Shown here: positions 34,230 to 61,393 of the stretch, in pieces
Layout: the number at the start of each line of letters is the position of its first letter
Numbering within the stretch: the stretch's first letter is position 1
Origin: a virus
Length of the DNA: 64,000 bases
Direction: 5' to 3' (one strand)
IMG/VR virus record: IMGVR_UViG_3300049846_001128
Span: 20,741-84,740 of that record
Notes under the pieces: model-generated
Seen by the model: only the letters and a program-made list of their open reading frames with translations
The model's database searches: none
What the model was told of the DNA's origin: nothing
Program-made: the position numbers and the translations under genes

Positions 34230-34524
34230 CTAAAACGATTTTTTCAGTAAATCCGCCACGTTGGCTAAACTTTTTTTCTCTAGCTTCAAACACAGATTCT
34301 TCAAATCCATGAGCTTTACACACTGCAGCAAATACCTCAAGAACATCTGCTAGCTCTTCAAGCAAGTTTTCTGGAGAAGCTGATAAAACTTCGTTGGCCT
34401 CTTCCACAAGCTTTTCTTTTAAAAGCTGCAAATATTCAGATTGCTCAGCAATGTAAGTGTCCATAGCTCTGCCTTCTTTTTCTAAAACCATGGCAGGAAG
34501 TTTATCTCGAATAAGTTTTTTCAT
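34210..34524 (-). CDS. MazG-like nucleoside triphosphate pyrophosphohydrolase
   Basis: 'KLIRDK...KLVEEANEV...EELADVLEV...K..RGGF'. Confidence 0.85.
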   Translation of the reverse strand: MKKLIRDKLPAMVLEKEGRAMDTYIAEQSEYLQLLKEKLVEEANEVLSASPENLLEELADVLEVFAAVCKAHGFEESVFEAREKKFSQRGGFTEKIVLVGPCKK

Positions 34525-34736
34525 ACAAGTGCCTTAAGTAGTGGAGTTAATAATATAAATGCGTCTTCTTCCAGCTGTTTACAATTATCATATAGTCTTT
34601 CAGAGTAACCATAGTGTCCTCCAAAGTCAATGAAAACTCTATAGCCGCCATCATTGGTAACTTCCGATATTTCAGCAAAGTCAGGAATTTGCTCGTGGTA
34701 GTAGCGAATGAATTTATCGCCAAGTTTGTACTTCAA
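34521..34736 (-). CDS. Tag-family SH3-like small protein
   Basis: KYKLGDK...LLTPLLKALV*. Confidence 0.75.
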   Translation of the reverse strand: MKYKLGDKFIRYYHEQIPDFAEISEVTNDGGYRVFIDFGGHYGYSERLYDNCKQLEEDAFILLTPLLKALV

Positions 34737-34912
34737 AATAAAGCCTTCGTTAAATCCGTTAGTTTCACAACTTCACTTGGTCGGCATTTATAGATACAGT
34801 CATAAAAAGTAACGTAAGTAGGAGTTACTTCCTTAATTGTATAAACCTTGCCTTCAAATACACTATAACTAGGAACTATAACTTCGTCGCCAACTTTAAT
34901 TTCTTTTTCCAT
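34733..34912 (-). CDS. Tag-family SH3-like small protein (59 aa, not in ORF track)
   Basis: MEKEIKVGDEVIV...VKLTDLTKALF*. Confidence 0.75.
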   Translation of the reverse strand: MEKEIKVGDEVIVPSYSVFEGKVYTIKEVTPTYVTFYDCIYKCRPSEVVKLTDLTKALF

Positions 34913-35280
34913 TCATTCCTCTGGGCATTTTCCGCCAGTGTTTTACTTAAATGGCAACCAGACTTACACAAAGCCTGTAAGTTATCTTCGCCGCAGAATA
35001 GTCTTTTAAAATGCACGTTCCAGTCTCTGTTGCCTTGCACATCTAAAGGCACAACTGGGTCAATATGATCGACCTCAATCTTGTCTACAATAGCTGTAGG
35101 ATGGTCTAACTTTATAACGTCGATAGACCTTGCTCCAGAGTAGACAATTTGCCCACAACCTTCACACTTATAAAGTTCAGGTCCGATCTTTGCTCTTGCC
35201 TTTACGTTTTTTATCGGTTGCCACTGCCTCGCTAGTTTCCTCAAGGCTGTGTCCACCTTCGCTTGAAATCTTTTGTCCAC
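34876..35280 (-). CDS. HNH endonuclease
   Basis: CEGC...EVDHIDP...NLQALCKSGCH..KT. Confidence 0.85.
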   Translation of the reverse strand: MDKRFQAKVDTALRKLARQWQPIKNVKARAKIGPELYKCEGCGQIVYSGARSIDVIKLDHPTAIVDKIEVDHIDPVVPLDVQGNRDWNVHFKRLFCGEDNLQALCKSGCHLSKTLAENAQRNEWKKKLKLATKL

Positions 35281-35641
35281 GGAATATTTCCTTCATTAAG
35301 TCTTTTTTAAGAACTGTTAAGCCAACTTGATTGAGCTGATCAAAAGCATCAACCTGCGGCAAAGTGTTATCGCCATACCTGTGCCATTCGCCTTGCACAC
35401 AAATATAGTATGTGCCAGCTTGGTCTTGTAACAACGCTCCAGCATTAAAGGCTAGCATGGTGGCTTTAACTGGAACAATCATAAAAGTGTTGGCAGAATC
35501 GGACGGATGTCCGTTCAAAACTATCTCCAAGCTTGTTTTAACGGCTCTTATTGGTCTTTTCACGCTTTTCTCCAAGTTGGTAATGCCTAATGGCTTGTTG
35601 AATTTCTTTAACAGAAGTAAACTCCACTCTACTTTCCGCAA
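35177..35641 (-). CDS. Hypothetical protein (true start probably downstream)
   Basis: ORF track; overlaps neighbours. Confidence 0.4.
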   Translation of the reverse strand: MRKVEWSLLLLKKFNKPLGITNLEKSVKRPIRAVKTSLEIVLNGHPSDSANTFMIVPVKATMLAFNAGALLQDQAGTYYICVQGEWHRYGDNTLPQVDAFDQLNQVGLTVLKKDLMKEIFRGQKISSEGGHSLEETSEAVATDKKRKGKSKDRT

Positions 35642-35936
35642 ACAAAGTACACTCTAGGTTATAATAGTATGTGTTAATTCCAGACTCTCGCTCAAGTTGA
35701 TCGCAAAAATACTCAAACTGAGCTTGCCTTTCTTTTCGCTCATTCTCTCTTTCTAAGTAGTTCAAATATTTAGTTCTTTTATCCAGTATAGTAACGTTAT
35801 TATCAAGAGCTATTCCTAGCACTATAGTTGAGATAAAGAAGCAAATAAATAAACCACCGAAAAAATTTGCAGCTTCATCACAATTTTTTAACCGTTGCTC
35901 TAAATTTTTAATAATGTCATCTTTTGTCTTTTTCAT
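35538..35936 (-). CDS. Hypothetical membrane protein
   Basis: Single TM segment. Confidence 0.5.
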   Translation of the reverse strand: MKKTKDDIIKNLEQRLKNCDEAANFFGGLFICFFISTIVLGIALDNNVTILDKRTKYLNYLERENERKERQAQFEYFCDQLERESGINTYYYNLECTLFAESRVEFTSVKEIQQAIRHYQLGEKREKTNKSR

Positions 35937-36256
35937 TTTTTCCTCATCGCTCTATAGCCACAGGCTGATTCGCAAAGCTCCAAAGTACCAACTGGTAATT
36001 CAGACTCTTTAACTTTTGCGCCACACTTAGGGCATTCTTTATGTTGAGGCTTTACCAACTTTGGTTTTGCCACTGGTTCTTTTTTATCATGTTTTTCAAC
36101 TTCACGTAACTTCTTTTTTAACTTAGCAATTTCATTTTTTAAATCAGCTATTTCTCGTTCCAAAGCGTATTCATGCTCTAAATTTGCTTTGCGGCGGCTC
36201 ATCCTAGTCCTTTGTTGAATCTGTGATTGTGTTTCTTGACGCAGTAATCTGAACAA
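35933..36256 (-). CDS. Coiled-coil protein with C-terminal zinc ribbon
   Basis: CPKCG...CESACGY. Confidence 0.55.
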   Translation of the reverse strand: MFRLLRQETQSQIQQRTRMSRRKANLEHEYALEREIADLKNEIAKLKKKLREVEKHDKKEPVAKPKLVKPQHKECPKCGAKVKESELPVGTLELCESACGYRAMRKK

Positions 36257-36462
36257 TAAACCACTGCTGTTCCAGAATTAGACTCATAAATAAATCTATC
36301 AGTGTGTAAGTAGCTATAAATAGTAAAAGCTGCATCTTTAATTCCTAATGGTGCAATCTCAGGCTGGTTGAATACTTTGCCACATTTTGAACAAGTTACA
36401 ACTCCAGAAAGTCTGATGCTAGGAGCTTGATTGGATACTTTTCCTTCTAATATTTTGCTCAT
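36199..36462 (-). CDS. Zinc-finger protein
   Basis: CSKCGK...YCSDYC. Confidence 0.55.
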   Translation of the reverse strand: MSKILEGKVSNQAPSIRLSGVVTCSKCGKVFNQPEIAPLGIKDAAFTIYSYLHTDRFIYESNSGTAVVYCSDYCVKKHNHRFNKGLG

Positions 36463-36968
36463 TTAAATTTATACCCCTGTTCGTCAATTCTATGCTCTTC
36501 AAATCTTACCTTACCTTCAGAAATTAGTCTACGAATATTTCTCTGATTCTCACTTAATTGAGAAGTACCCATTTTCATTTCAATAAAAACAATGGATTCG
36601 TCGCCAAAATAAATGTAGTCCACGGGCTGGAATAAGGGCTTAAGCTTTTTATAATCATAAGGAAATTCAGCGTGGAATGGTAAAACTTGCTCAGATATTT
36701 GCCCAAGTCTTACAGCCTTACTTTGCTGCTCCCCTTTGAGTTTTTCAAAGTTGGCAGAAGTTTGTTCTAGTTTGTGAATAAGAGAATTGATTTCAGCCTC
36801 TTTTTTGTCTACAACCTCTCTGAAATGACTCATAGGAATTGTAGTTCCGGGCTGAGGAATTTGCCTCATTAACTCAGCCATTTGTTGAGCCTGATCTGGC
36901 TTAGCCGAAAAGAAATGCGTATATAAGGCGTAAATTAATAAGATAACTATAGCAATCGTGCTAATCAT
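36459..36968 (-). CDS. Holliday-junction-resolvase-like endonuclease (Endonuc_Holl type) with N-terminal TM
   Basis: 'GQISEQVLPF...PVDYIYF...IVFIEMKMG.SQLS..QR.IR'. Confidence 0.8.
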   Translation of the reverse strand: MISTIAIVILLIYALYTHFFSAKPDQAQQMAELMRQIPQPGTTIPMSHFREVVDKKEAEINSLIHKLEQTSANFEKLKGEQQSKAVRLGQISEQVLPFHAEFPYDYKKLKPLFQPVDYIYFGDESIVFIEMKMGTSQLSENQRNIRRLISEGKVRFEEHRIDEQGYKFK

Positions 36969-37147
36969 AATAAAGCCTCAAGTAGCGGAGTTGGACGAAT
37001 AAAATTTGTGGGATATGATAAATAAAATGTTTCTTTAAATGTAACTCGGTTTTTAGTAATTTCTTCAATAGTATAAATTGTACCAATATCAAACCAAGGA
37101 TACATGTTTACTAAAACCTTGTCACCAACTTTAAAACTACTCTGCAT
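36965..37147 (-). CDS. Tag-family SH3-like small protein
   Basis: MQSSFKVGDKV...RPTPLLEALL* (start re-assigned). Confidence 0.75.
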   Translation of the reverse strand: MQSSFKVGDKVLVNMYPWFDIGTIYTIEEITKNRVTFKETFYLSYPTNFIRPTPLLEALL

Positions 37148-37505
37148 ACACAGCCAAAGGCTCGTAAAAAAATAAGTCAAGCTGTAAGTAAAAAGTACCA
37201 AGATTAATATGTTTCTTGTCTAAATCTGGATTAACGTAGCTAACCACTACAACATCCCCTTCTCTTTTAGCTTCAAAAATTTCACCAGTTAAAAAGGAAT
37301 AGTATATTCCATCAACAGGGCTATAATTTACCGGCTTAGCAAATACTTGTAGAATAAAGTATTTACAAAAAAAGTAAAGGTCAATGGTTTTGGTTGCCGC
37401 CTCTACCACCGTTGCCGTTGTCACTTCCTTCACCTTCGTCCCCGTCATCGTCAGCCTCGCTACCAAGCCCTGCAAAGTACTCTTCAAGTTCGTTTTCAAA
37501 ATCAA
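37137..37505 (-). CDS. Hypothetical protein (start uncertain)
   Basis: Fills the gap between neighbours. Confidence 0.4.
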   Translation of the reverse strand: MILKTNLKSTLQGLVARLTMTGTKVKEVTTATVVEAATKTIDLYFFCKYFILQVFAKPVNYSPVDGIYYSFLTGEIFEAKREGDVVVVSYVNPDLDKKHINLGTFYLQLDLFFYEPLAVYAE

Positions 37506-38412: not shown

Positions 38413-38633
38413 TATTCAACTCCTAGACAAATAATAGTCAATAATTGTCTAACTCTTTCTGAACTTAAACCCACAGCGTTTGCTGTTTCTTCAATATTAT
38501 AGCCGCAAAGATAAAGCATTGCAACTCTATATTTTAAAGGATTTTTTGCCCTACCTGCGTACAAAGCCTTTTGAACATGCGCTCGACAAGGGTAGTCATA
38601 TAGTTTCTTATGTAGCCAGAAAATGAACTTCAC
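38412..38633 (-). CDS. Sigma-70 region-4-like HTH protein
   Basis: 'YNIEETANAVGLSSERVRQL'. Confidence 0.65.
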   Translation of the reverse strand: MKFIFWLHKKLYDYPCRAHVQKALYAGRAKNPLKYRVAMLYLCGYNIEETANAVGLSSERVRQLLTIICLGVE

Positions 38634-38809
38634 AACAAAGCCTCCATTAAAGGTGTTAAAGGTATTAATCTATCCAGCTCACAGTACCAAGTTAAGCCAG
38701 TGTAATAACTTGTTACAACAACCCAGCCAGATTTATCACTACTAGTAGGAAAATACTCCACAATCTCAGGAATCATGTCTGAGTGAAGTGGGAGGTAAAC
38801 CATTTTCAT
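38630..38809 (-). CDS. Tag-family small protein (59 aa, not in ORF track)
   Basis: MKMVYLPLHS...LIPLTPLMEALL*. Confidence 0.7.
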   Translation of the reverse strand: MKMVYLPLHSDMIPEIVEYFPTSSDKSGWVVVTSYYTGLTWYCELDRLIPLTPLMEALL

Positions 38810-39141: not shown

Positions 39142-39142
39142 A

Positions 39143-39960: not shown

Positions 39961-40260
39961 TTATAATAAAGATTTTAATAAATCCGAAATTGGCTTAAGC
40001 CTTTTTTGCGGATAGTAGTTGTAGTATATGTTAGTATTATTTTTATTTAATGGCAAGCATAAATATTCATAAGGCTTTGCTTTTGGTGAAATATGAATAA
40101 CTTCACACATTTCCCCATCTAGTAATACAATGTCCCCGAGTTTATATTTAGGCTTTATGAGTTTCTTATAAAGCCAGTAGTAAGCTTCTCTTAAAGGTCT
40201 GTAATGGACTGCTATAATATTAACCAAGAGTAAAATGGCTGTAAGATGGAGAATGTTCAA
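39961..40260 (-). CDS. Tag-family SH3-like protein with N-terminal TM helix
   Basis: TM...KYKLGDIV...PISDLLKSLL*. Confidence 0.7.
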   Translation of the reverse strand: MNILHLTAILLLVNIIAVHYRPLREAYYWLYKKLIKPKYKLGDIVLLDGEMCEVIHISPKAKPYEYLCLPLNKNNTNIYYNYYPQKRLKPISDLLKSLL

Positions 40261-40387: not shown

Positions 40388-40597
40388 TTATAGTAAAGCC
40401 TCCATCAAAGGAGTTAGAGGAATCCAAGGTTCTGATAAAAATGTCTCAACTACCCAACTAAGGTTTGTTACGGCTCCATAATTATAGCACAGTTTGAAAT
40501 CTACCACTGTAGTGCGTAAAGCAGTTATAACACAAGTGTCTATAGCTTTAGTTTGCGAGTTAACCCTATAATAACGTTTTCCAACTAATAATTCCAT
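40388..40597 (-). CDS. Tag-family SH3-like small protein
   Basis: MELLVGKRYY...IPLTPLMEALL*. Confidence 0.75.
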   Translation of the reverse strand: MELLVGKRYYRVNSQTKAIDTCVITALRTTVVDFKLCYNYGAVTNLSWVVETFLSEPWIPLTPLMEALL

Positions 40598-40971
40598 CTT
40601 CGCTTCTTCCCAACTCTTAAGTCAACGTGGACAAATCCTTTATTCCGTCCGTCACCAACGGCTTCAAAGTATTTTTCGCACAATAAATATAATTTGTCAA
40701 GCTTTTCTTTTGAGCTTACTGTTGGGCGAATGTCAACGGCTTTTCCAAGGCAATGCTGACTGGAAGGTGCTCCACCAATTTGCTTATTGTAAGCAGGAGA
40801 GCGATAACCAGAGGTAATTGTTAGAGACTCCCCGAATTCTTCTCTAAGTTTATCAAGTTTGTCAATCAGCTCTTGCTCAATGAAAAACTCTTTGTCAGAG
40901 CCGTTTTCAAACTCTTTGGTTGAGAAGTATTTTCCAAGTTTTTTATACTGACCTTTTTTCCAACAAATCAT
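40585..40971 (-). CDS. Peptidase M15 family (endolysin-like)
   Basis: 'ITSGYRS..YN..IGGA.SSQH..GKAVD...FVHVD'. Confidence 0.9.
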   Translation of the reverse strand: MICWKKGQYKKLGKYFSTKEFENGSDKEFFIEQELIDKLDKLREEFGESLTITSGYRSPAYNKQIGGAPSSQHCLGKAVDIRPTVSSKEKLDKLYLLCEKYFEAVGDGRNKGFVHVDLRVGKKRRWNY

Positions 40972-41156
40972 ACCAATGTCTCAATTAATGGAGTAGCTAA
41001 TATAAATCTGTGAATGTTCCAATTAGATTCTACTTCAACTAAGCTAATTAATTCATATTCCTCACTAAACACGCTTTCAATTGTATATACTTCTCCTAAA
41101 AATAAATAAGTATTGTGTGGTTTTATACAAATTACTCTATCTCCGACTTTGAACAT
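40968..41156 (-). CDS. Tag-family SH3-like small protein
   Basis: MFKVGDRV...LATPLIETLV*. Confidence 0.75.
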   Translation of the reverse strand: MFKVGDRVICIKPHNTYLFLGEVYTIESVFSEEYELISLVEVESNWNIHRFILATPLIETLV

Positions 41157-42025: not shown

Positions 42026-42229
42026 TTAAAGAAGAGCCTTTTCAAGGTCAGAAAGCTCTCTAACTTTGGTGTCACTTCTAGTGGAGCTGAGTGGAATAAC
42101 TGTATCTAAATGATAAGGTTTAGGACGTCCTAGCCACTCTATAACATACATGTCTTCTTTTTGTATTTCTAAAATGACATACTCAATATGGTGTGCAGCG
42201 CATAGATAAACTTCTCCGACTTTTTTCAT
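42026..42229 (-). CDS. Tag-family SH3-like small protein
   Basis: MKKVGEVY...ELSDLEKALL*. Confidence 0.75.
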   Translation of the reverse strand: MKKVGEVYLCAAHHIEYVILEIQKEDMYVIEWLGRPKPYHLDTVIPLSSTRSDTKVRELSDLEKALL

Positions 42230-42237: not shown

Positions 42238-42444
42238 CTAAATCAATGCTAGCATAAGTTCAGAAGCTTGTCCAACATATTTGTCGTATTGCATGGCATG
42301 AACTGGGAATTGCTCAGCTCCAACATCCATTGTCCAATAGACTGTAACCCAGCCGTTTAGTTCGTCAATGTCTAAAACAATGTACTCGCCAATAACTTCT
42401 CCGTCAAAAGTCTCTTGGTAAATCCCGTGTAAAATTGGTTTCAC
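42238..42444 (-). CDS. Tag-family small protein
   Basis: ...GIY...QASELMLALI*. Confidence 0.65.
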   Translation of the reverse strand: MKPILHGIYQETFDGEVIGEYIVLDIDELNGWVTVYWTMDVGAEQFPVHAMQYDKYVGQASELMLALI

Positions 42445-44976: not shown

Positions 44977-45173
44977 TTCTTAGCCTTTAATTTTTCATAA
45001 GCATAATTCACAATTTCCCCTATCATTATAATTAAACATATTATAGCTCCTAGCCCACAAAGGCCAATAGCAACTACACATACAGTAGAGATTATATCTA
45101 ATGGACTACCATAATACTCAGCCAATAGAACTAATAGTGAGAAAGGAATTAGCCCAATTAAAAAATTTCTCAT
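44973..45173 (-). CDS. Small membrane protein
   Basis: Two hydrophobic segments. Confidence 0.5.
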   Translation of the reverse strand: MRNFLIGLIPFSLLVLLAEYYGSPLDIISTVCVVAIGLCGLGAIICLIIMIGEIVNYAYEKLKAKK

Positions 45174-45400
45174 TCCAAAGCCTTTAATAATGGCGAAAGT
45201 TCTTCGCGCAGTTCTTTAGCCAAAGCTTGTACCAAGGCTTTTCTTAAGTTTGGTTCAGCTAGAAGTTCAGCAACTATCTCCTGCCCATAAGATACATAAG
45301 CTTGGGCGGGAATTAAACCCGAAGGAATTAGAGTTACATTAGTAGAAGAACTAGCTATGGCTACTCCTGATGAAGATGCTACGGTATGTGATTTTATCAT
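45170..45400 (-). CDS. Tag-bearing protein without SH3-like domain
   Basis: ...EELSPLLKALE*. Confidence 0.6.
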   Translation of the reverse strand: MIKSHTVASSSGVAIASSSTNVTLIPSGLIPAQAYVSYGQEIVAELLAEPNLRKALVQALAKELREELSPLLKALE

Positions 45401-48265: not shown

Positions 48266-48501
48266 CCAAACTCCCCATAAGCTAGTACGTAAAACCCAAT
48301 TGCCTGTTCTCTTTGCTCAGGAGTCAGTTCTCCTTTCTTAAAGTAAGATGAAATTATTTTATCCATAGTTGGACTTCGTAAATTAGAAGTCAAAACATGA
48401 TTACACTCTTCAATCAAACTATCGTCGTTCATTCCTTCAATTTCCATTTTCAGGGTAGAAATTTCATAAGAAATGTCGTTATAGTCAATTAAAGTAGCCA
48501 T
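48253..48501 (-). CDS. Hypothetical protein
   Basis: TAATG-coupled ORF. Confidence 0.55.
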   Translation of the reverse strand: MATLIDYNDISYEISTLKMEIEGMNDDSLIEECNHVLTSNLRSPTMDKIISSYFKKGELTPEQREQAIGFYVLAYGEFGWQS

Positions 48502-48719
48502 TAAAATAATGCCTTTATTAAATCAGTGGCGTGAATCAAATCCTCTGGAAGTTGAGCTACTCCCATTACATAGCCACCATATTCTGTAGCAGAATTTCCA
48601 CACCAAATATAATTTTGGTCAATTCTTATAATCTTCATAATTCCGTATTGTTTTCCCCAAGTAAAAATGTTCAAAACTTCATCTCCAACTTTAAAGCTCT
48701 TCTCTGTGTCTTTTTCCAT
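48501..48719 (-). CDS. Tag-family SH3-like small protein
   Basis: MEKDTEKSFKVGDEV...HATDLIKALF*. Confidence 0.75.
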   Translation of the reverse strand: MEKDTEKSFKVGDEVLNIFTWGKQYGIMKIIRIDQNYIWCGNSATEYGGYVMGVAQLPEDLIHATDLIKALF

Positions 48720-49542: not shown

Positions 49543-49560
49543 GCTTTTCCTTTTGAAATA

Positions 49561-49776
49561 TCAAAGCAACGCCTTTTCTAAGTCTGTAAGAACTAGATGG
49601 TGTCCGGAATGTACTGTTATCCATATTGACTGATGAGGGTCTACGTAATCTTCACCATTGGAGTCTTTAATAATGTTAATTCGATAACTATTAGGCATAT
49701 ATCTATGAATTTCTAAGATTATAAACACTTGTTTATCGTATTTATTTCTTAAATAATCACCTACTTGGAAACTCAT
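49561..49776 (-). CDS. Tag-family SH3-like small protein
   Basis: MSFQVGDY...VLTDLEKALL*. Confidence 0.75.
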   Translation of the reverse strand: MSFQVGDYLRNKYDKQVFIILEIHRYMPNSYRINIIKDSNGEDYVDPHQSIWITVHSGHHLVLTDLEKALL

Positions 49777-49896: not shown

Positions 49897-50130
49897 TCAA
49901 GCTAATGCCTTTTCTAGTTCAGTGGCTTTACGAAGAACCCAGCTAGTAGAATTAATAAGACACTCGCCGGTTTTTCTATTTGGGAGAAATCCTTCAACTT
50001 TACCATTAGTTCCTACAACTCTAGCGTAACGACTTTCGTCGCTTCCCTTCTCTAATTTATGACAATTACCTCCAGCAATAGGGTTAGTGAGAATGTAATA
50101 CTCGCCAAATTCAATTTCTTCCAAGCTCAA
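49897..50130 (-). CDS. Tag-family small protein
   Basis: ...IEFGEYY...KATELEKALA*. Confidence 0.7.
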   Translation of the reverse strand: MSLEEIEFGEYYILTNPIAGGNCHKLEKGSDESRYARVVGTNGKVEGFLPNRKTGECLINSTSWVLRKATELEKALA

Positions 50131-50348
50131 AGTAAAGCTCCTATTAAGTCTGTGTAAATGTAAATATTTTCCAAGTCATCGTTGTCAAAAGATATAGGTC
50201 CCGGCTTAACGACATTTATAGGAACTGAGCATTTTAAACAGGTGTAGTGTATTGTTATTTCATCAAGTACAGCGTCAACACGGAATACAATGAAATCCTT
50301 GCTCAACTCAGCAAAGTAAACTTTTCCCACTTCAAACTTATCAATCAT
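50127..50348 (-). CDS. Tag-family SH3-like small protein
   Basis: KFEVGKVY...IYTDLIGALL*. Confidence 0.75.
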   Translation of the reverse strand: MIDKFEVGKVYFAELSKDFIVFRVDAVLDEITIHYTCLKCSVPINVVKPGPISFDNDDLENIYIYTDLIGALL

Positions 50349-50382: not shown

Positions 50383-50598
50383 TCAAAGTAGTGCCTTTTC
50401 TAACTCAGAAAGTTTAACAACCCATTCAGGGTCTAAGCTAACCCAAATCATAGTGCGAGTATCTTCACAAGGCTCACCCTTTTGATCGATGATTATCTTA
50501 GTTCTATAGTTATACTCTTCACTATCCCTTACAGCAATAACTATGGAAATTTGCTTACTTCCAACATGTCTAACAATATCACCAACTTTAAACTGCAC
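50383..50598 (-). CDS. Tag-family SH3-like small protein
   Basis: MQFKVGDIV...KLSELEKALL*. Confidence 0.75.
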   Translation of the reverse strand: MQFKVGDIVRHVGSKQISIVIAVRDSEEYNYRTKIIIDQKGEPCEDTRTMIWVSLDPEWVVKLSELEKALL

Positions 50599-51618: not shown

Positions 51619-51861
51619 TTAATTTAATGCTGTAAGTAATTCTGATTTAATAATGTAACCTAAGTCTATCTCTTTTTTAAAAGAATCCGAGGGTCTAGAA
51701 AAACCATGTTCCGGTTTTACTACTTGATCGCCATAACAGTAACTAACTCTATTACCTTTTACTTGAAGTATAATTATAGTTTTAAAATTATTCAAAAGAT
51801 TACTACCGCTATCAATTTTCTTAGCTCTAATAAAAACATCGCCAACTTTAATCTCTGACAT
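51619..51861 (-). CDS. Tag-family SH3-like small protein
   Basis: MSEIKVGDVF...IKSELLTALN*. Confidence 0.7.
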   Translation of the reverse strand: MSEIKVGDVFIRAKKIDSGSNLLNNFKTIIILQVKGNRVSYCYGDQVVKPEHGFSRPSDSFKKEIDLGYIIKSELLTALN

Positions 51862-52078
51862 TTTCCACCCCGTAGAACAGTTTAACATTCTCCACTCTCT
51901 TTGTCAATTCCTTATCGTTAGGGTATTTCTCAAGGCAAAACCAATACGCTGCTAAAACTGGGCAGAAGGAACAAGCGCAGTACAAGGCTAAAGCGTTTGG
52001 TCCAGCTTCTTCATAAAGCTCAAGCACTTTCTCTTGATGAGCCAGTCTATAAGGGTTAACGTCAAAGGTTTTGTTCAA
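51848..52078 (-). CDS. Hypothetical protein
   Basis: GGAG RBS, TTG start. Confidence 0.5.
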   Translation of the reverse strand: MNKTFDVNPYRLAHQEKVLELYEEAGPNALALYCACSFCPVLAAYWFCLEKYPNDKELTKRVENVKLFYGVENVRD

Positions 52079-54230: not shown

Positions 54231-54428
54231 TCAACTAAGAGCTTTTTCCAATTCTGTTGCTAAGCGAAATCTTGCTTGGTCGTACCAATCTGAAACTTCT
54301 ACAATAAAGACTGAATTAACTCCTACCAAACTTTCGACAGTGTATACATTACCAAGCTGTAAAGAAGGACTGTAGGCTCCTGTTGTTGGAATAACACAAA
54401 CCACTTTGTCACCGCTTTTGAAGTCCAC
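54231..54428 (-). CDS. Tag-family SH3-like small protein
   Basis: (GTG)DFKSGDKVVC...LATELEKALS*; paralog of 40968..41156. Confidence 0.75.
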   Translation of the reverse strand: MDFKSGDKVVCVIPTTGAYSPSLQLGNVYTVESLVGVNSVFIVEVSDWYDQARFRLATELEKALS

Positions 54429-55398
54429 TCGAATCTCCTCTCCAGCATAAATTAAAGAACTCACAAGGCTTTCCAAAGAAATGGCACTCTTTTGGAGAGC
54501 TTTTCTTCTGGAATTTCCTCTCGGCTATATTATGCAACACTTCATCAATTTCTGCAAATATTATTTCTTTTAAATCGTCATAAGTTTCATCTTTTAAGAT
54601 TTGCGTTCTAATCCTTGGCTCTTTGATTCTAATTTTCTTCTCCAGAACAATGTAAGAAGCTCTAGGAATATCTTCTGCTTCGCAGTAAATGTTAAGCTGA
54701 GGAGAGCGAGACACACTGTTTTCAGGGTAGGCTTTTGAGCTTGTTTTAAGATCGCAGACGAATTGAAGCTCAGGAGCGTCCGTAAAACTTGCAATAAAGT
54801 CAATTTTCCCATTTAACTCATCTCCGGCAGAGTTTGTCAACTGAATTTCTTTCTGAATGGCGTAAACCTTATGAATTTGTGGCAAAATGTCTGTCTCAAA
54901 AGCCTTTAGAAGCAATTCTCCCTTTCGGTAAAGGCTTAGCCAGTTTAGCTGGTTAAAAACAATCCTCGTCGATTCTGACAATGGTTTGTCGGCTTGAATT
55001 GCTTTGTTAGTCCTTTCCCAGAAGTCAAAGAAGTCAGAAATTCCGGGGTTTTGCCTTTGTAAATGAAGCAAGTCTTCGGCTTTTAAAATGCTCGGCTCAA
55101 AGTCTGATGCAAAATAGTCGCACAAAGGGTTTCTTTCCAGCAAAACTCCGTTCTGTTCGCGCATAGTTTTGTCGAAAACGGAATAAGCGTCGTCGGTCAG
55201 CATTAAAGAAAGCTCTCGCTCGGTTAGTTCTTCTTTCTTTTTAAGAAGGAAAAGCTCAACAGCGTTATCAATAGCAGTTCCAAAGAATAATGGAGAGTTG
55301 ATTAAAACGCCAGACAAACGCTCTTCTGAGTAAAGCCTGTAGGATTCAGAGCATTGCTTGTAGCGTTCAATTCTTGAGTGAGATATTTTTAAGGTCAA
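54409..55398 (-). CDS. PD-(D/E)XK (Cas4/RecB-like) exonuclease
   Basis: 'SHSRIERYKQC', 'GKIDF...DLKTS', 'QLNIY', C-terminal 'C...PCEF..LC'. Confidence 0.85.
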   Translation of the reverse strand: MTLKISHSRIERYKQCSESYRLYSEERLSGVLINSPLFFGTAIDNAVELFLLKKKEELTERELSLMLTDDAYSVFDKTMREQNGVLLERNPLCDYFASDFEPSILKAEDLLHLQRQNPGISDFFDFWERTNKAIQADKPLSESTRIVFNQLNWLSLYRKGELLLKAFETDILPQIHKVYAIQKEIQLTNSAGDELNGKIDFIASFTDAPELQFVCDLKTSSKAYPENSVSRSPQLNIYCEAEDIPRASYIVLEKKIRIKEPRIRTQILKDETYDDLKEIIFAEIDEVLHNIAERKFQKKSSPKECHFFGKPCEFFNLCWRGDSSGLQKR

Positions 55399-55625
55399 AT
55401 TAAAGCCTTTTCAAGATCAGTTAATTTGTGAAAAGAGTTCTGTATTTTTGTAAATTCATTTTCACTTAGTATAAATTTTTTAGGTCTTAAGTCATTCTGC
55501 CATTCGTATTCTATAATAGAGCTTGTTTTGCTAACAACAATTGCATAATGTTCACGATTGCTGCTGTAAAACATATCTCCAACTTTTATCTGGCTGAATC
55601 TGACATTTAACTCCAGCTTATCCAT
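55395..55625 (-). CDS. Tag-family SH3-like small protein
   Basis: IKVGDMF...KLTDLEKALI*. Confidence 0.75.
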   Translation of the reverse strand: MDKLELNVRFSQIKVGDMFYSSNREHYAIVVSKTSSIIEYEWQNDLRPKKFILSENEFTKIQNSFHKLTDLEKALI

Positions 55626-56024: not shown

Positions 56025-56210
56025 TTATAACTCCTTGACTTTGCTAGCGTCAATCATCAGTTGCAAAGTTCCGTTAATAACTTCTCCGTTAGCTAAGCTT
56101 AACACATCTTGCAGAGCTTGTCTATAGCCTTCGTTGTAAATGTCAATTACATCTTGGCGAGTGTATGGAAGAGAGTATTGGTATTTGTCGGCAAGTTCTT
56201 CAGCTTTCAC
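56025..56210 (-). CDS. Hypothetical protein
   Basis: GTGA-coupled to tag gene (MKAEELADKY...). Confidence 0.5.
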   Translation of the reverse strand: MKAEELADKYQYSLPYTRQDVIDIYNEGYRQALQDVLSLANGEVINGTLQLMIDASKVKEL

Positions 56211-56428
56211 ATTAAAGCCTTTATTAATTCTGTTGGCTCTGCTAATTCTTCTTCGTAAGCACAACCGTAGGCAATTTTATCATACTTATGTTTTAAATCA
56301 TACAAATAAGTTTGTCTAATTTTTGAAATAAGTACAACTTGCATAAGTTTTCCTATACAGTCTTTGTAAATTCCCGACTTACGGTTGCTAGTTATTAAAA
56401 CCCAGTCTCCTATTTGGAACTTACTCAC
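56207..56428 (-). CDS. Tag-family SH3-like small protein
   Basis: MSKFQIGDWV...EPTELIKALM*. Confidence 0.75.
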   Translation of the reverse strand: MSKFQIGDWVLITSNRKSGIYKDCIGKLMQVVLISKIRQTYLYDLKHKYDKIAYGCAYEEELAEPTELIKALM

Positions 56429-59236: not shown

Positions 59237-59512
59237 CTATTCTAAAGCTTTTTCCAACTCTGTCTCTTTTACCACTCTCACTATTTTATCAGGGTTTTTA
59301 TAATTTTCAATCTTTTTTAGCACTTCCTTTAACGATTCCAATGACTTTTGTTTACAATCTCTGTGGACATATACCTGAACACTTAACCAATTATAAGTGT
59401 AAAAGCTCGTCGGATTAAGGTCCAAATAAGCTGGAACAGGAATAAACCCAAGCAAAAGCCTTTGATAGCCATAAGTTCCATCTCCAAACTGGACAATTCT
59501 TCCTTTTTTCAC
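59237..59512 (-). CDS. Tag-bearing protein with non-KVGD domain
   Basis: (GTG)KKGRIVQF...VKETELEKALE*. Confidence 0.6.
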   Translation of the reverse strand: MKKGRIVQFGDGTYGYQRLLLGFIPVPAYLDLNPTSFYTYNWLSVQVYVHRDCKQKSLESLKEVLKKIENYKNPDKIVRVVKETELEKALE

Positions 59513-59739
59513 AGCAGTGCCTTTGTTAAGTCTGTAAGCCTTGACCAGCCCCATTTGTTGAAGTTTTCTTCTGTGGCAGAAGTTATAGCTATCGTGCTTG
59601 GGTTTTGTGGACTCCACTTCGCTTCTCGAATGCTTTCCCATTTATAGGCGATAAACCCATCCCTCACAGAAACAACAGTGGCTACAAAATCCCTGCCTGA
59701 GTTAAACCATTGGTCGCCAACTTGTATTTTCCAACTCAT
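59509..59739 (-). CDS. Tag-family SH3-like small protein
   Basis: IQVGDQW...RLTDLTKALL*. Confidence 0.75.
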   Translation of the reverse strand: MSWKIQVGDQWFNSGRDFVATVVSVRDGFIAYKWESIREAKWSPQNPSTIAITSATEENFNKWGWSRLTDLTKALL

Positions 59740-59773
59740 AGGTTTTTCCTTTTGAAAAACTCAGCTTTGAGTA

Positions 59774-60193
59774 TCAAAGCAAAGCCTTTCCAAGCTCAGT
59801 TCTGCTTAGCATAAACTCCGTTTTGTCCTTGTATCTCACTCCGGCTACGAAATAGCCTCTCATAGATGAACTACTGAAACTAAAATACCAAACTGAAGGG
59901 TCATTCTTTACTTTATCCAAATCAACCAGCCTCTCGTAACTTTTCCAAGCTTCTATTGGATTTCCTTTAATGCCGACAATGCTCTCTTTGTTTAGGGTAA
60001 ATCCAGCCGCTTCTAGCCTAGCCTTTGTTTCCTCTGACTCGTCGTGTTTTAAGAGCCTATAAACTTTTGCACAATAATAAGTGTAAGTTCCGACCACAGG
60101 CTTCCCAATTAAATCCTTACAAACTGGAACTTCCCTTTTCTCTAGGAATTTGTCAAGGGAAGATTTATTAGTTTTATATGGTTTTTCTTTCAT
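59774..60193 (-). CDS. Tag-bearing protein (139 aa)
   Basis: ...LSRTELGKALL*. Confidence 0.7.
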   Translation of the reverse strand: MKEKPYKTNKSSLDKFLEKREVPVCKDLIGKPVVGTYTYYCAKVYRLLKHDESEETKARLEAAGFTLNKESIVGIKGNPIEAWKSYERLVDLDKVKNDPSVWYFSFSSSSMRGYFVAGVRYKDKTEFMLSRTELGKALL

Positions 60194-60227
60194 AGGTTTT
60201 TCCTTTTGAAAAGCAAGGCTTTTATTC

Positions 60228-60458
60228 TCAAAGTAGAGCCTTTAATAGTGGAGTTATTCTTATCCATCCTGCATTGGCTAGTCTTTCGTCGTCAAAATCA
60301 TAAAATTTCTCAGCGTAATTTGCAAATTCATCTCCATTGTCTACTCTATACCATTTCCATGAGAATGAACTTTTAGTTACCTCAGTCACAACTCCCTTAA
60401 ACTTTCGAGACTCGTCAAGGAAACAGTCTCCAACCTTCAACTCTCTAATCCAGTTCAC
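60228..60458 (-). CDS. Tag-family SH3-like small protein
   Basis: LKVGDCF...RITPLLKALL*. Confidence 0.75.
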   Translation of the reverse strand: MNWIRELKVGDCFLDESRKFKGVVTEVTKSSFSWKWYRVDNGDEFANYAEKFYDFDDERLANAGWIRITPLLKALL

Positions 60459-60700
60459 AGTAAAGCCTCGGTCAATTCAGTTAGTGGGATTAATTGAGCA
60501 GAAACTTCTTCCCATATAATAGCTGAAACTAAGCTGTGCCAGCCTAAGCCTCGGTACATATCATTGGAACTTCCTCTGCGTTCAGAATATTCGTAGTGAA
60601 TGATATAATTGTCAATTTTGGTTATTGCTAAGGTACTGTAGTCAGTGTCGAAGTATTTCATTCCTTCAACTACGTAAAACCTATCTCCTACTTTTGGCAT
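60455..60700 (-). CDS. Tag-family SH3-like small protein
   Basis: MPKVGDRF...PLTELTEALL*. Confidence 0.75.
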   Translation of the reverse strand: MPKVGDRFYVVEGMKYFDTDYSTLAITKIDNYIIHYEYSERRGSSNDMYRGLGWHSLVSAIIWEEVSAQLIPLTELTEALL

Positions 60701-60780
60701 AACTCTCCAATTTACTAAGGACAAATCCCTTAGCCACGGCTAATAATAGCACAAGTATGACAAACAGTGCAAGAGAAATC

Positions 60781-60978
60781 TTAGTAAAGAGCTTGTATAA
60801 GTTCCGTAGCGCGGATGAAATCCAGTTTGAAAGTTTCAAGCCTAACTGATGAATTGAGTCCGAAGTTATACTCATAGAAAATATAATTATCCCTTATTAA
60901 AGTTATTCTAACAGGCTGGTTTTGGCATGAAGGAGCATAGCGTTCACCAATGTTTATATAAATATCTCCAACTTTCAT
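60781..60978 (-). CDS. Tag-family SH3-like small protein
   Basis: MKVGDIY...RATELIQALY*. Confidence 0.75.
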   Translation of the reverse strand: MKVGDIYINIGERYAPSCQNQPVRITLIRDNYIFYEYNFGLNSSVRLETFKLDFIRATELIQALY

Positions 60979-61181
60979 AACAAAGCTCGCATTAATTCTG
61001 TGGCTAAAGTAGCGTCAGTAACGGGAATTTCTTTGTCTTTTAAGTCGCCATCGAGAAATTTAACCTTGTACTTATTTTGAAAATTTTTATTACCTCTAAC
61101 TTCAGTAACTACCGCTAGCTTATTGTCAAAGCTTTTAAAGTACTTATCCTTAGTAATTACAAAATCGCCAACTTTAATCAT
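60975..61181 (-). CDS. Tag-family SH3-like small protein
   Basis: MIKVGDFV...LATELMRALL*. Confidence 0.75.
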   Translation of the reverse strand: MIKVGDFVITKDKYFKSFDNKLAVVTEVRGNKNFQNKYKVKFLDGDLKDKEIPVTDATLATELMRALL

Positions 61182-61393
61182 AAAAGAGCCTCTATTAGAG
61201 GAGTTACTTGTATTAAACGATTATCATAGTAAATCTTCGATTTATAACCTACAAGTGAATCATGTTTTGATGCTATTAAATAACAGAAATTGTAGCATTT
61301 CTTAATCTCATCATACCCTGTTATCTCAATTAAAACAATTTCACCATCATGTCCCCAGTGAGGGTCTAGGTACTTCTTACCTATTTCTAGCAT
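61178..61393 (-). CDS. Tag-family SH3-like small protein
   Basis: MLEIGKKY...QVTPLIEALL*. Confidence 0.75.
   Translation of the reverse strand: MLEIGKKYLDPHWGHDGEIVLIEITGYDEIKKCYNFCYLIASKHDSLVGYKSKIYYDNRLIQVTPLIEALL

What the first reader, a model, noticed from the sequence alone, without database searches (positions are those of the whole stretch)
34521..61393. About 30 dispersed, hypervariable small genes share one C-terminal octapeptide tag: candidate modular adaptor/effector system
Seen: I count 30 minus-strand ORFs (mostly 59-91 aa, up to 139), two missed by the ORF track (34733..34912, 38630..38809), ending exactly in [T/S]-[P/D/E]-L-x-[E/K mostly]-[A mostly]-L-x-stop. Examples: TPLLKALV, TDLTKALF, TPLLEALL, TPLIEALE, TPLMEALL, SDLEKALL, TPLMESLL, TELEKALA, TDLIGALL, TELIKALM, TELMRALL. 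Most begin with F/I/L-K-V-G-D-x-hydrophobic and have a short beta-strand pattern, but their middles are largely unalignable. They sit singly or in short runs between core genes (polymerase, primase, helicase, exonuclease, RNR). Knowledge: the 'KVGD.V' start is typical of SH3/KOW/Tudor-like barrels. Inference: a variable binding domain plus a constant terminal amphipathic helix is the logic of an adaptor library (compare F-box/SOCS-box). Each protein could bind a different host target such as a defence protein while the tag docks on a common hub: a host protease reading hydrophobic C-termini (ssrA ends in ALAA), a phage AAA/VWA machine, or a virion-loading factor. I know of no described phage system like this.
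Basis: partly seen in the sequence, partly recalled or inferred. Interest (0 to 1): 0.92.

Follow-up and report, generated by a model that had tools for sequence, protein, structure and literature searches.

The report
Shared C-terminal tag on phage early proteins
About a third of the early genes of an uncultured freshwater phage end in the same eight-residue helix, which sits on unrelated protein bodies, also encodes the ribosome-binding site of the next gene, and looks like an undescribed address label whose reader is still unknown.

Summary
Thirty minus-strand ORFs in the window end in [T/S]-[P/D/E]-L-x-x-x-L-x-stop. The whole 84.7-kb phage genome has 35 by the strict pattern and 37 by a looser one, against 0.2 expected by shuffling. 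All lie in the early/replication strand; none of 46 late genes carries it.

Codon analysis shows two overlaid constraints. T, L, A and L are held at the amino-acid level. The K/E-A pair is held as RAG-GCN, the Shine-Dalgarno of the next gene, whose start overlaps the stop.

Related phages carry the same device in lineage-specific versions: SSLExELL, SPLYQALL, TEMDKALEGL, HPILVKLWRLD.

Most bodies are predicted KOW/SH3-like barrels. The tag also sits on a predicted all-alpha protein. In relatives it follows a Gly-rich linker on a roughly 220-aa nucleotidyltransferase-like protein, whose homologues in tag-less phages lack it or end in an SSB-like DDIPF tail.

Tagged genes turn over far faster than untagged small genes.

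My best reading (about 0.5) is a portable docking peptide for one shared partner, not identified. A MoxR/VWA-zincin pair is a candidate but also occurs without tags. The main rival is a structural helix frozen by the coupling junction.

Earlier notes of this scan report analogous tags in other phages.

The parts
34521..34736 (-). tagged ORF, 71 aa, KLGD start, ends TPLLKALV
   Evidence: start TTG overlaps stop of upstream tagged gene
34733..34912 (-). tagged ORF, 59 aa, KVGD start, ends TDLTKALF; folded
   Evidence: AF2 pLDDT 87.5, small barrel plus helix 53-58; KOW/SH3-like by Foldseek
36965..37201 (-). tagged ORF, ends TPLLEALL (78 aa as longest ORF; likely 60 aa from ATG at 37147)
   Evidence: the 60-aa form is on record as P0021
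37841..38029 (-). tagged ORF, 62 aa, NVGD start, ends TPLIEALE
38630..38809 (-). tagged ORF, 59 aa, no KVGD motif, ends TPLMEALL
39961..40260 (-). tagged ORF, 99 aa, hydrophobic N-terminus then KLGD, ends SDLLKSLL; orthologues in G3/G4 end TGLLKELE, in G1 TKMEKALE
40388..40597 (-). tagged ORF, 69 aa, ends TPLMEALL
   Evidence: paralogue of 47850-48062
40968..41156 (-). tagged ORF, 62 aa, KVGD start, ends TPLIETLV
42026..42229 (-). tagged ORF, 67 aa, ends SDLEKALL; next gene not coupled, tag kept
42238..42444 (-). tagged ORF, 68 aa, ends SELMLALI (no SD in tag; next gene has its own GAGGG)
45170..45400 (-). tagged ORF, 76 aa, Ser/Ala-rich then helical-looking body, ends SPLLKALE
47850..48062 (-). 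tagged ORF, 70 aa, ends TPLMESLL; its stop overlaps the ATG of the DNA polymerase (MKEHYHIE)
48059..48265 (-). tagged ORF, 68 aa, ends TPLIEALL
48501..48776 (-). tagged ORF, ends TDLIKALF (91 aa longest; likely 72 aa from ATG at 48719)
49561..49776 (-). tagged ORF, 71 aa, QVGD start, ends TDLEKALL
49897..50130 (-). tagged ORF, 77 aa, ends TELEKALA
50127..50348 (-). tagged ORF, 73 aa, EVGK start, ends TDLIGALL
50383..50598 (-). tagged ORF, 71 aa, KVGD start, ends SELEKALL; paralogue of 49561-49776
51619..51888 (-). tagged ORF, ends SELLTALN (89 aa longest; likely 80 aa), just upstream of the DnaB-like helicase
54231..54476 (-). tagged ORF, ends TELEKALS (81 aa longest); homologue in G1 ends TEMDKALEGL
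55395..55625 (-). tagged ORF, 76 aa, ends TDLEKALI
56207..56428 (-). tagged ORF, 73 aa, QIGD start, ends TELIKALM
59237..59641 (-). tagged ORF, ends TELEKALE (134 aa longest; likely 91 aa from the GTG at 59512 that overlaps the stop of 59509-59739)
59509..59739 (-). tagged ORF, 76 aa, QVGD start, ends TDLTKALL
59774..60193 (-). tagged ORF, 139 aa, body not SH3-like by sequence; ends TELGKALL; a 43%-identical homologue (P0155) ends SELGRELL; tag codons form the 5' arm of a terminator-like hairpin
60228..60458 (-). tagged ORF, 76 aa, KVGD, ends TPLLKALL
60455..60724 (-). tagged ORF, ends TELTEALL (89 aa longest; 81-aa form on record as P0059)
60781..60978 (-). tagged ORF, 65 aa, MKVGD start, ends TELIQALY
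60975..61181 (-). tagged ORF, 68 aa, KVGD start, ends TELMRALL
61178..61393 (-). tagged ORF, 71 aa, ends TPLIEALL; first tagged gene downstream of the VWA-zincin gene (a LAGLIDADG gene lies between)
62202..63410 (-). context, candidate reader only: DUF2201_N zincin-like (HExxH kept) plus VWA-like (DxSxS kept) protein, 402 aa; its MoxR-type AAA_5 partner lies at genome 445-1617, outside the window

Best explanation
The eight-residue end [T/S]-[P/D/E]-L-x-[K/E]-A-L-x is a short, N-capped amphipathic helix. It works as a portable C-terminal docking peptide, that is, an address label. It is attached to roughly a third of the early and middle proteins of this phage. Most of these are small, fast-evolving KOW/SH3-like barrels, but some have unrelated bodies. 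In this reading all of them are brought to one shared partner, phage or host, which I could not identify.

The same 24 nucleotides are dual-coding. Codons -4/-3 (RAG GCN) are the Shine-Dalgarno of the next cistron, and the last codon plus TGA contains its start (ATGA, GTGA or TTGA). Each tagged gene is therefore also a translational-coupling cassette.

Shown: the motif, its enrichment, protein-level selection, the SD overlay, lineage-specific versions, presence on different predicted folds, and rapid turnover of the carriers.

Inferred: that the helix binds a common partner, and what that achieves.
For: 1. Enrichment and strict placement: 35 observed against 0.21 expected; a cluster of 37 at the C-terminus against 1 at internal offsets.

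2. Protein-level selection. At codons -8, -6, -3 and -2, information is high at codon positions 1 and 2 (1.0-2.0 bits) and low at position 3 (0.33-0.71). Leu uses TTA, TTG, CTT, CTA, CTG and CTC, yet it is Leu in 35 of 35 at both positions, never I, V, M or F. Exact residue identity across bodies that cannot be aligned with one another is more typical of a motif read by one partner than of a helix packing on 30 different barrels (inference).

3. Different bodies:
- AF2 gives a barrel plus terminal helix for 34733-34912 (pLDDT 87.5).
- AF2 gives an all-alpha protein, with the tag as a separate last helix, for genome 10277-10528 (best model pLDDT 87.4).
- In the relative L056 and 22 further homologues, a roughly 220-aa protein with a PolyA_pol-head match carries the tag after a Gly-rich, length-variable linker (23 of 23).
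- Its homologue in the tag-less phage G5 lacks the tag, as do the homologues in the 13 distant loci I examined of 20 returned.
- In 2 of those 13 loci it ends ...SDDIPF instead. In G1 it ends DMFKAL-GNGNK-DEFPF. So a tail resembling the SSB docking tail (recalled: E. coli SSB ends DDDIPF) takes the tag's place or stands beside it.

4. The tag follows the genome, not the protein family. Each lineage has its own version:
- G0: T[PDE]LxKALL
- G3/G4/L050-52: SSLExELL
- L056: SPLYQALL
- G1: TEMDKALEGL
- G2: HPILVKLWRLD
. In five sequence-detectable homologue pairs the tag has the flavour of its own genome.

5. The tag is kept where no coupling is needed. Twelve tagged genes are followed by a gap or terminator, for example 50383-50598, 59774-60193 and 60228-60458.

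6. Coupled untagged genes encode their SD with other peptides such as GDL and GGK. Fourteen of 18 have an SD-like tetramer in their tail. The SD alone therefore does not force this peptide.

7. Carriers are the fast-evolving fraction: 2 of 37 tagged against 29 of 60 untagged small minus-strand genes have a reciprocal best hit in G4, which is 95% complete with 79% polymerase identity (Fisher p = 5e-6).
Against: - No partner was found.

- Part of the motif and most of the lineage 'flavour' at positions 5-6 are explained by the SD rather than by a protein partner: RAGGC, NNG-GAG, GAGGG, TGGAGA and CAGGC.

- The helix has high pLDDT (about 88) in a monomer model, which fits packing on its own barrel. 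I could not see coordinates.

- Generic KVGD SH3-like repeats without the tag end in a similar T-E-x-E-L stretch (P0002 and P0005). The untagged SH3-DUF3310 fusion at 38026-38412 keeps 'GDLELAEP' at the same place. So the first half of the tag may be an ancestral part of this barrel family.

- In the all-alpha orthologue pair the tag is less conserved than the body.

- The three loosest tags (TELLEAID, CPLRKALD, RPLLKALL) all sit on bodies that lack the N-terminal KVGD motif. This is what a decaying relic would look like.

- Within-genome body similarity exceeds between-genome similarity (28 against 3 blastp pairs). Lineage-specific expansion can therefore explain part of the shared flavour.

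- The second AF2 model rests on 2 sequences, and its other four models score 49-70.
Confidence: 0.5

Rival explanations
1. There is no shared partner. The tag is the ancestral C-terminal helix of one lineage-expanded KOW/SH3-like family. It is frozen because the same nucleotides carry the Shine-Dalgarno and start of the next gene. Other bodies acquired it passively when genes were replaced or inserted upstream of a conserved coupling junction (cassette turnover).
For: - SD overlay in G0: AAG/GAG 24 against AAA/GAA 3 at codon -4, while the genome prefers AAA/GAA (1344:794), binomial p = 4e-8.
- Coupled genes are 15 of 15 G-ending, against 4 of 8 in uncoupled ones, p = 0.008.
- The same rule holds in L056: 5 of 5 against 1 of 5.
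- In G2, W-R is TGGAGA and the D codon supplies the ATG.
- Generic KVGD repeats and the SH3-DUF3310 fusion end in a T/G-D/E-L-E-like stretch.
- The helix is confident in a monomer model.
- Bodies are more alike within genomes than between them.
- The loosest tags sit on bodies without the KVGD motif.
Against: - Third codon positions and Leu first positions vary freely, so the DNA junction is not conserved enough to act as a recombination site or RNA signal.
- Exact Leu and Thr identity is kept in genes with no coupled downstream gene.
- The nucleotidyltransferase-like family keeps the tag in 23 of 23 homologues at 43-63% identity, behind a variable Gly-rich linker. That does not look like a packed structural element.
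- Other coupled genes use other end peptides.
- The G1-wide L-to-M change at position 3 has no SD explanation.
Confidence: 0.27
2. The reader of the tag is the phage's own MoxR AAA+ ATPase together with the fused zincin-VWA protein (DUF2201). The VWA or peptidase domain captures or trims the C-terminal peptide and MoxR remodels the client. This is a special case of the docking reading and is counted inside its 0.5.
For: - G0 encodes both proteins. HExxH and the VWA DxSxS motif are invariant in 8 homologues.
- In G0, G2, G4, L050-52 and L056 the pair sits among tagged genes. In G2 and G4 a tagged gene lies between the two. In L056 four tagged genes follow directly.
- The two complete relatives without the pair (G5, G6) have no tag family.
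- Passages and section 24 of Kaur et al. 2020 (PMC7159879) say that vWA domains capture a peptide that MoxR then remodels. They also describe zincin peptidases paired with small, rapidly diverging proteins whose C-terminal peptide is the conserved part.
Against: - All tag-bearing genomes here are one clade, so the co-occurrence is effectively one observation.
- G7 has the pair (DUF2201 at 24% identity) but no tag family: largest C-terminal cluster 3 of 173.
- The N4-like phage Pollock has N4 gp24/gp25-like genes and no tag family: largest cluster 2 of 67. tblastn finds this protein in 363 phage records, mostly N4-like, where I know of no such tags (the last clause is recalled).
- No radical-SAM/SPASM or VMAP component was seen among the proteins I scanned.
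Confidence: 0.15
3. The tag is a C-terminal degron. Its hydrophobic end (…ALL, …ALV) is read by a host AAA+ protease, so early proteins are removed on schedule.
For: - The last three residues are mostly non-polar (A-L-L/V/F/I/M in 23 of 35). This recalls ssrA …ALAA and the rule that non-polar C-termini destabilise proteins (recalled).
- All carriers are early or middle genes.
- The phage has a ClpP-family gene at 33040-33810.
Against: - The last residue is not conserved: E, S, A, N, C, Y and M also occur.
- In G2 the motif is followed by 1-8 mostly charged residues, and in G1 by E-G-L. A free-end reader would not see the same signal.
- The conserved part is the N-cap and first turn, not the extreme end.
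- The ClpP-like protein matches PHROG head-maturation proteases, and no other protease was found in the late operon.
Confidence: 0.08

Closest known systems
C-terminal docking tails that gather many proteins on one hub, e.g. the SSB C-terminal tip (…DDDIPF) and sliding-clamp-binding tails (recalled from the literature)
   Same: It is a short conserved peptide at the very end of otherwise unrelated proteins. In one family it sits behind a flexible linker. On the nucleotidyltransferase-like family, an SSB-like …DDIPF tail replaces the tag in other phages, or stands beside it.
   Different: The sequence is unrelated: it has no acidic run plus IPF, and no QLxLF. It sits on about a third of the early proteome rather than a handful of replisome proteins. 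No hub is known. The same nucleotides also encode the next gene's SD and start.
Zincin metallopeptidase plus small rapidly diverging 'FxSxx-COOH'-type proteins attached to vWA-MoxR systems (Kaur et al. 2020, PMC7159879; I read passages and section 24)
   Same: The small proteins have variable bodies, and the conserved part is a C-terminal peptide. A zincin-like peptidase, a VWA domain and a MoxR ATPase are encoded in the same genome, near many carriers.
   Different: Here the zincin and VWA domains are fused (DUF2201), as in N4 gp25-like proteins. There are dozens of carriers rather than one precursor. No radical-SAM, VMAP or AP-ATPase partner was seen. The motif is unrelated. The pair also occurs in phages without tags. 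Cleavage is untested.
KOW / SH3-like / Tudor-like small barrels (NusG and Spt5 KOW, ribosomal L24 family)
   Same: The predicted fold of the commonest body matches: Foldseek TM 0.6-0.75 to NusG, Spt5 and L24-type chains and to many small uncharacterised phage proteins. The N-terminal K-V-G-D-x-V strand is shared with generic tandem SH3-like repeats.
   Different: No Pfam SH3 or KOW model reaches its cut-off and all Foldseek E-values are 0.002 or worse. The exact terminal helix motif occurs only in this phage clade among the whole-length hits I read: 30 small proteins fetched of the 150 best listed.
Translational coupling with the Shine-Dalgarno inside the upstream gene and ATGA-type stop/start overlap (textbook)
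   Same: RAGG lies 7 nt before an overlapping ATG, GTG or TTG. G-ending codons are chosen only where the next gene is coupled.
   Different: The SD fixes only two codons. The rest of the peptide is held at the amino-acid level and persists without coupling.
Phage T4 capsid-targeting sequence on internal proteins; poxvirus ankyrin/PRANC (F-box-like) families (both recalled)
   Same: The logic is the same: variable proteins share one short terminal module that plugs them into a common machine.
   Different: The T4 signal is N-terminal, sits on a few late proteins and is cleaved. PRANC is a roughly 40-residue domain that binds a known host ligase. Here the element is an 8-residue C-terminal helix on early proteins, with no known receptor.

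Membership tests
KOW/SH3-like barrel superfamily (fold level) | Small five-stranded beta-barrel recognisable by structure comparison | tested here: inconclusive
   The AF2 model of 34733-34912 has pLDDT 87.5 and DSSP shows only short strands. Best Foldseek matches are NusG, Spt5 KOW and L24-type chains with TM 0.55-0.75 but E of 0.018 or worse. In BFVD the best E is 0.0024.
KOW/SH3-like barrel superfamily (sequence families) | A Pfam SH3, KOW or Tudor model above its gathering score | tested here: not met
   In 10 of 10 tagged proteins scanned, no family reached its cut-off. The best were Phage_ProQ_C_like at 19.7 bits (cut-off 27) and SH3_13 at 18.5 (cut-off 41). PHROGs gave only weak hits to unknown-function families.
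FxSxx-COOH-type peptide-processing modules of vWA-MoxR systems | Zincin-like metallopeptidase encoded with the small variable protein | tested here: met
   DUF2201_N (E 1.6e-24) with invariant HExxH, in the same genome and next to a run of tagged genes.
FxSxx-COOH-type peptide-processing modules of vWA-MoxR systems | One of the described C-terminal motif types (FxSxx, RxD, acidic, FtsH-associated), and for FxSxx a radical-SAM/SPASM gene | tested here: not met
   The motif here is [TS][PDE]LxKALx. No radical-SAM hit appeared among the 55 G0 proteins I scanned with Pfam; not every gene was scanned. The motif types come from section 24 of PMC7159879.
FxSxx-COOH-type peptide-processing modules of vWA-MoxR systems | Cleavage of the C-terminal peptide by the peptidase | not testable with these tools
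   This needs biochemistry or mass spectrometry.
ssrA-like C-terminal degrons of AAA+ proteases | Signal read from the free C-terminus with conserved last residues (…LAA-COOH; recalled) | tested here: not met
   The last residue varies: L, V, F, E, A, S, N, C, Y, M and I. In G2 the homologous motif is followed by 1-8 further residues, and in G1 by EGL.
SSB-C-terminal-tail mimics | Acidic run followed by I/F-P-F at the end (recalled) | tested here: not met
   No G0 protein ends this way: 0 of 159 called. Such tails occur on MoxR and on the nucleotidyltransferase-like protein in relatives.
Sliding-clamp-binding motifs | QL[SD]LF or PIP-box QxxLxxFF consensus (recalled) | tested here: not met
   The tag has no Gln at the first position and no aromatic pair.

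The most novel reading that the evidence does not exclude
A clade of roughly 80-kb freshwater phages labels a third of its early proteome with one genome-specific C-terminal peptide. The labelled proteins are fast-evolving barrels, helical proteins and at least one enzyme. A single hub reads the label, so the phage can route, time, remodel or concentrate a whole arsenal of host-takeover proteins through one interface. The label co-evolves with that hub in each lineage. Earlier notes of this scan report analogous but different tags in unrelated phages. Taken together, this would be a general, undescribed organising principle of phage early gene expression. It is also written so that the label's codons double as the translational coupling signal, making every labelled gene a self-contained, shuffle-ready cassette.
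Probability: 0.35. Interest if true: 0.9.

Novelty: new variant of a known kind. Interest (0 to 1): 0.72.

Why it matters
Most phage early genes are small orphans with no handle for study. If a third of them share one address label, a single pull-down with the tag peptide could reveal the machine through which the phage deploys its host-takeover or counter-defence proteins. The label itself would become a sequence rule for finding such genes in metagenomes.

The dual use of the same 24 nucleotides is a clean natural example of overlapping constraints. They act as a protein motif and also as the Shine-Dalgarno plus start of the next gene. This may explain how such gene cassettes multiply and swap bodies while staying expressed.

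The lineage-specific versions give a ready-made set of natural variants for testing specificity.

Tried and rejected
- Pfam and PHROGs on tagged proteins gave nothing above threshold.

- Word-based homologue search of 49561-49776 found only itself. For 59774-60193 it found one homologue.

- ESM Atlas for 59774-60193 gave no usable hit. The Atlas's own model is poor, with pLDDT 0.45.

- megablast of the polymerase against named phages found no match. tblastn found only distant Salinibacter and Nostoc phage polymerases at 28% identity or less. The phage has no named relative.

- An iterative HMM on bodies without tails joined only 5 members.

- Foldseek of the all-alpha model against the PDB found nothing better than E = 1.5.

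- Complex prediction of the DUF2201 protein (alignment A4) with tagged protein 34733-34912 (alignment A1) gave no verdict: score 0.00, mark 0.32, controls not run. I do not use it as evidence either way.

- Sequencing runs: no RNA holder is listed. Three DNA runs with large shares, from freshwater and freshwater-sediment metagenomes, hold the stretch. One of them may be the source. I did not lay reads.

- The flexible C-terminal clustering at offsets chained unrelated Lys-rich tails and was too noisy to use for G5-G7. I rely on the anchored version.

- SD-sequestering hairpin idea: P-type tags pair CCUCU with AGAGG more often, with mean paired probability 0.65 against 0.48, but p = 0.07. I have not adopted it.

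- RNA-signal or recombination-site reading of the tag DNA: rejected because third codon positions vary.

- Membrane-targeting helix, clamp-binding motif and SET-methyltransferase substrate were considered from the sequence only and dropped. The tags are acidic in G1, lack Q or aromatic pairs, and the Lys is not invariant.

- Literature searches for a published description of shared C-terminal tags on phage early proteins returned nothing relevant in the listings. One search, on SD and coupling constraints, listed only general papers, and I read none of them. Figure 1-source data of PMC7159879 may list phage MoxR-VWA systems that I could not see.

Full report
WHAT IS THERE.

The window is bases 20741-84740 of an 84,740-bp virus record. 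Late structural genes (terminase, portal, major head protein) lie on the plus strand. Early and replication genes lie on the minus strand. These include family-B polymerase, DnaB-like helicase, a weak primase match, ERF, PD-(D/E)XK nuclease and ribonucleotide reductase.

A mechanical scan of all 469 ORFs of 30 aa or more with [TS][PDE]L...L.$ returns 30 ORFs.

In the whole genome there are 35 of 618 ORFs. Two hundred shuffles give a mean of 0.21 and a maximum of 2. Only 7 of 44,058 internal octamers match.

Three looser ends (TELLEAID, CPLRKALD, RPLLKALL) lie in a run at genome 9221-11610. That run is the first stretch of the leftward block, next to the divergent late genes.

Without any motif, clustering the last eight residues gives one cluster of 37 of 158 proteins and nothing at internal offsets. 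Thirty-seven of 113 called minus-strand genes carry the tag, and 0 of 46 plus-strand genes do.

TWO CODES IN ONE STRETCH.

At the Thr, Leu, Ala and Leu codons the second base is invariant or nearly so, the first is partly free (Leu uses both TTR and CTN), and the third is nearly free (0.33-0.71 bits). This is the signature of amino-acid selection.

Codon -4 is the exception. Its third base is its most conserved (1.13 bits). It is AAG or GAG 24 times and AAA or GAA about 3 times, although minus-strand genes prefer AAA/GAA 1344:794 (binomial p = 4e-8).

With the following GCN this spells RAGG, 7 nt before an ATG, GTG or TTG that overlaps the TGA stop.

Where the stop overlaps or abuts the next called start, K/E codons are G-ending in 15 of 15 genes. 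Where a gap follows they are G-ending in 4 of 8 (p = 0.008). In several gap cases the residue is not K/E at all and the next gene has its own GGAG or GAGG.

The relative L056 obeys the same rule: CAG, AAG or GAG in 5 of 5 coupled tags, and CAA or AAA in 4 of 5 uncoupled ones. In G2 the W-R of the tag is TGGAGA and the D codon supplies the ATG of the next gene. The 'extra' residues after the tag there are the next gene read out of frame.

Untagged coupled genes carry their SD in other end peptides: 14 of 18 have an SD-like tetramer. So the K/E-A pair is largely an RNA-level requirement, and the rest of the peptide is not.

RELATIVES.

Polymerase-based and DUF2201-based scans of IMG/VR found a clade of roughly 80-kb contigs. 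Members with 69-79% polymerase identity or 43-67% DUF2201 identity all have tagged small genes, each with its own version:
- G1: [T/P]-E-M-x-K-A-L-E-G-L, 11 genes in a half genome.
- G2: H-P-[I/T]-L-V-K-L-W-R-L-D…, 15 genes.
- G3, G4 and L050-52: S-[S/P]-L-x-x-E-L-L, 10 in G4 and 11 in the 21-kb L051.
- L056: S-P-L-Y-Q-A-L-L, 10 in 20 kb.
.

Relatives at 40-49% polymerase identity that are complete (G5, G6, G7) have no such family; their largest anchored cluster is 3.

A profile of 46 SH3-type members was searched against 1.84 billion representatives. It found 500 proteins at E of 0.001 or better. I read 30 small whole-length hits from the 150 listed. All come from this clade and carry a version of the tag. 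The long hits match only the N-terminal half and are tandem 'KFKVGD' SH3-like repeats without the helix.

BODIES.

The 59-aa protein 34733-34912, folded with the 46-row alignment, gives pLDDT 87.5, short strands and a terminal helix at residues 53-58. The nearest structures are KOW and SH3-type barrels and many small unnamed phage proteins, all at weak E-values.

Twenty-three of 37 tagged proteins have the N-terminal K-V-G-D-like strand and 14 do not.

One of the latter, genome 10277-10528, has a 53%-identical orthologue in G4. It folds as all-alpha, with the tag as a separate last helix after a break (best model pLDDT 87.4, the other four 49-70).

Another carrier has a hydrophobic N-terminus (39961-40260). 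A third is a 139-aa protein (59774-60193) whose 43%-identical homologue also ends in a tag.

In L056 a 221-aa protein directly after the DUF2201 gene ends SPLCKALL. Its 22 database homologues (43-63% identity; three of four scanned give a weak PolyA_pol-head match) all end in the same kind of peptide. The peptide follows a Gly-rich stretch and a linker with insertions and deletions.

The homologue in the tag-less phage G5 has no tag. The one in G1 ends DMFKAL-GNGNK-DEFPF. I examined 13 of the 20 more distant viral loci returned. None has the tag or a tag family, and two end …SDDIPF. On this enzyme the tag therefore behaves as an exchangeable tail that goes with the genome. In some phages its place is taken by a tail resembling the known SSB docking tip (the resemblance is recalled).

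EVOLUTION.

Only 2 of 37 tagged genes have a reciprocal best hit in the 95%-complete G4, against 29 of 60 untagged small minus-strand genes. A third orthologue, for genome 10277-10528, was found by phmmer on raw ORFs. For G2 the figures are 0 of 37 against 18 of 60 (p = 5e-6 and 8e-5).

Genes at matching map positions often cannot be aligned at all, for example the tagged gene just upstream of the helicase. Bodies resemble each other more within a genome than between genomes (28 against 3 blastp pairs).

In the five homologue pairs that can be recognised, the tag has the flavour of its own genome:
- TELGRALL / TSLGKELN
- SDLLKSLL / TGLLKELE / TKMEKALE
- TELGKALL / SELGRELL
- TELEKALS / TEMDKALEGL
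- CPLRKALD / TGLGKQLF
.

The change at position 6 (A to E) improves the SD (AGGC to AGGA or GGAG), so it needs no protein partner. The G1-wide Leu-to-Met change at position 3 has no such explanation.

WHO READS IT?

The genome encodes a MoxR-type AAA_5 ATPase (genome 445-1617) and a fused zincin-VWA protein (window 62202-63410). The catalytic and MIDAS-type motifs are conserved in eight homologues. In every tag-bearing relative I could check, the pair lies among tagged genes. The complete relatives G5 and G6 lack both pair and tags.

Published analysis holds that vWA domains capture a peptide which MoxR then remodels. It also describes zincin peptidases paired with small, rapidly diverging proteins whose conserved part is a C-terminal peptide (PMC7159879, passages and section 24).

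Against this, G7 and the N4-like coliphage Pollock have the pair without any tag family, and the protein occurs in 363 named phage records. The pair is therefore at best necessary, and the link is one phylogenetic observation.

The ClpP-family gene at 33040-33810 matches head-maturation proteases, and no other protease was found in the late operon.

VERDICT.

The tag is a real, protein-level, strictly terminal element in this genome. It is overlaid on a translational-coupling signal, shared in lineage-specific versions by a phage clade, borne by proteins of different predicted folds, and concentrated in the fastest-evolving genes.

I favour a portable docking peptide for a single partner (0.5). 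A structural helix frozen by the coupling junction is the main rival (0.27). Neither is proven, because no partner was found and I could not inspect model coordinates.

Earlier notes of this scan describe comparable shared tails in other uncultured phages. These are unchecked AI notes, but they suggest this is one instance of a wider pattern. My three literature searches on shared phage tags found no published description.

Noticed in passing
relatives: G4 5797-6954 (in L054), L050:8736-9914, L051:8720-9907; L001:7478-8137; L060/L061 homologues; G5 2898-3215 and 38842-39285: Tails like the SSB C-terminal tip (D-[D/E]-[I/F]-P-F) sit on non-SSB proteins. These are the MoxR ATPase of three relatives, a nucleotidyltransferase-like protein, and two G5 proteins. 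No G0 protein ends this way. This looks like a second, known-type docking tail used in the same phage group.
   Followed up: partly
window tags, e.g. 61189-61201 and 48070-48082 (minus strand): Within the tag, Pro at -7 goes with Glu at -4 (8:3) and Asp/Glu with Lys (15:1), Fisher p = 6e-4. P-type tags can fold a CCUCU…AGAGG hairpin over the SD (mean pairing probability 0.65 against 0.48, p = 0.07). This is either an intrahelical salt-bridge rule or an SD-masking stem that enforces coupling.
   Followed up: partly
window 59764-59780 (minus strand); also downstream of 50383 and 60228: Terminator-like hairpins followed by T-runs use the A-L codons of the tag (GCT TTG) as their 5' arm. They are followed by a repeated 'caaaaggaaaa' SD region.
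   Followed up: partly
window 61387-62202 (minus strand): A LAGLIDADG homing-endonuclease gene sits between the zincin-VWA gene and the run of tagged genes. An HNH-like ORF lies at 34876-35280.
   Followed up: no
This may be a separate targeting signal.
   Followed up: no
window 58267-59229 versus G2 57173-58129: The ribonucleotide reductase small subunit is 92% identical between G0 and G2, while their polymerases are 69% identical. This suggests recent exchange of the RNR genes.
   Followed up: no
genome 7514-7915 and 6033-6575 (before the window), minus strand: A SET-domain protein (PF00856, E 6e-16) and a DUF7178 protein are encoded among the early genes.
   Followed up: no
window 38026-38412 and 44477-44782 (minus strand): There are two untagged proteins with the same K-V/I-G-D start. 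One is fused to DUF3310 and keeps 'GDLELAEP' where the tag would be. The other ends RPLTLWEKICSTLFN.
   Followed up: partly
window 45397-50397: This stretch is held by DNA runs labelled freshwater sediment metagenome and freshwater metagenome (three runs with shares 0.67-1.00 from two studies, one possibly the source). No named phage relative was found.
   Followed up: partly
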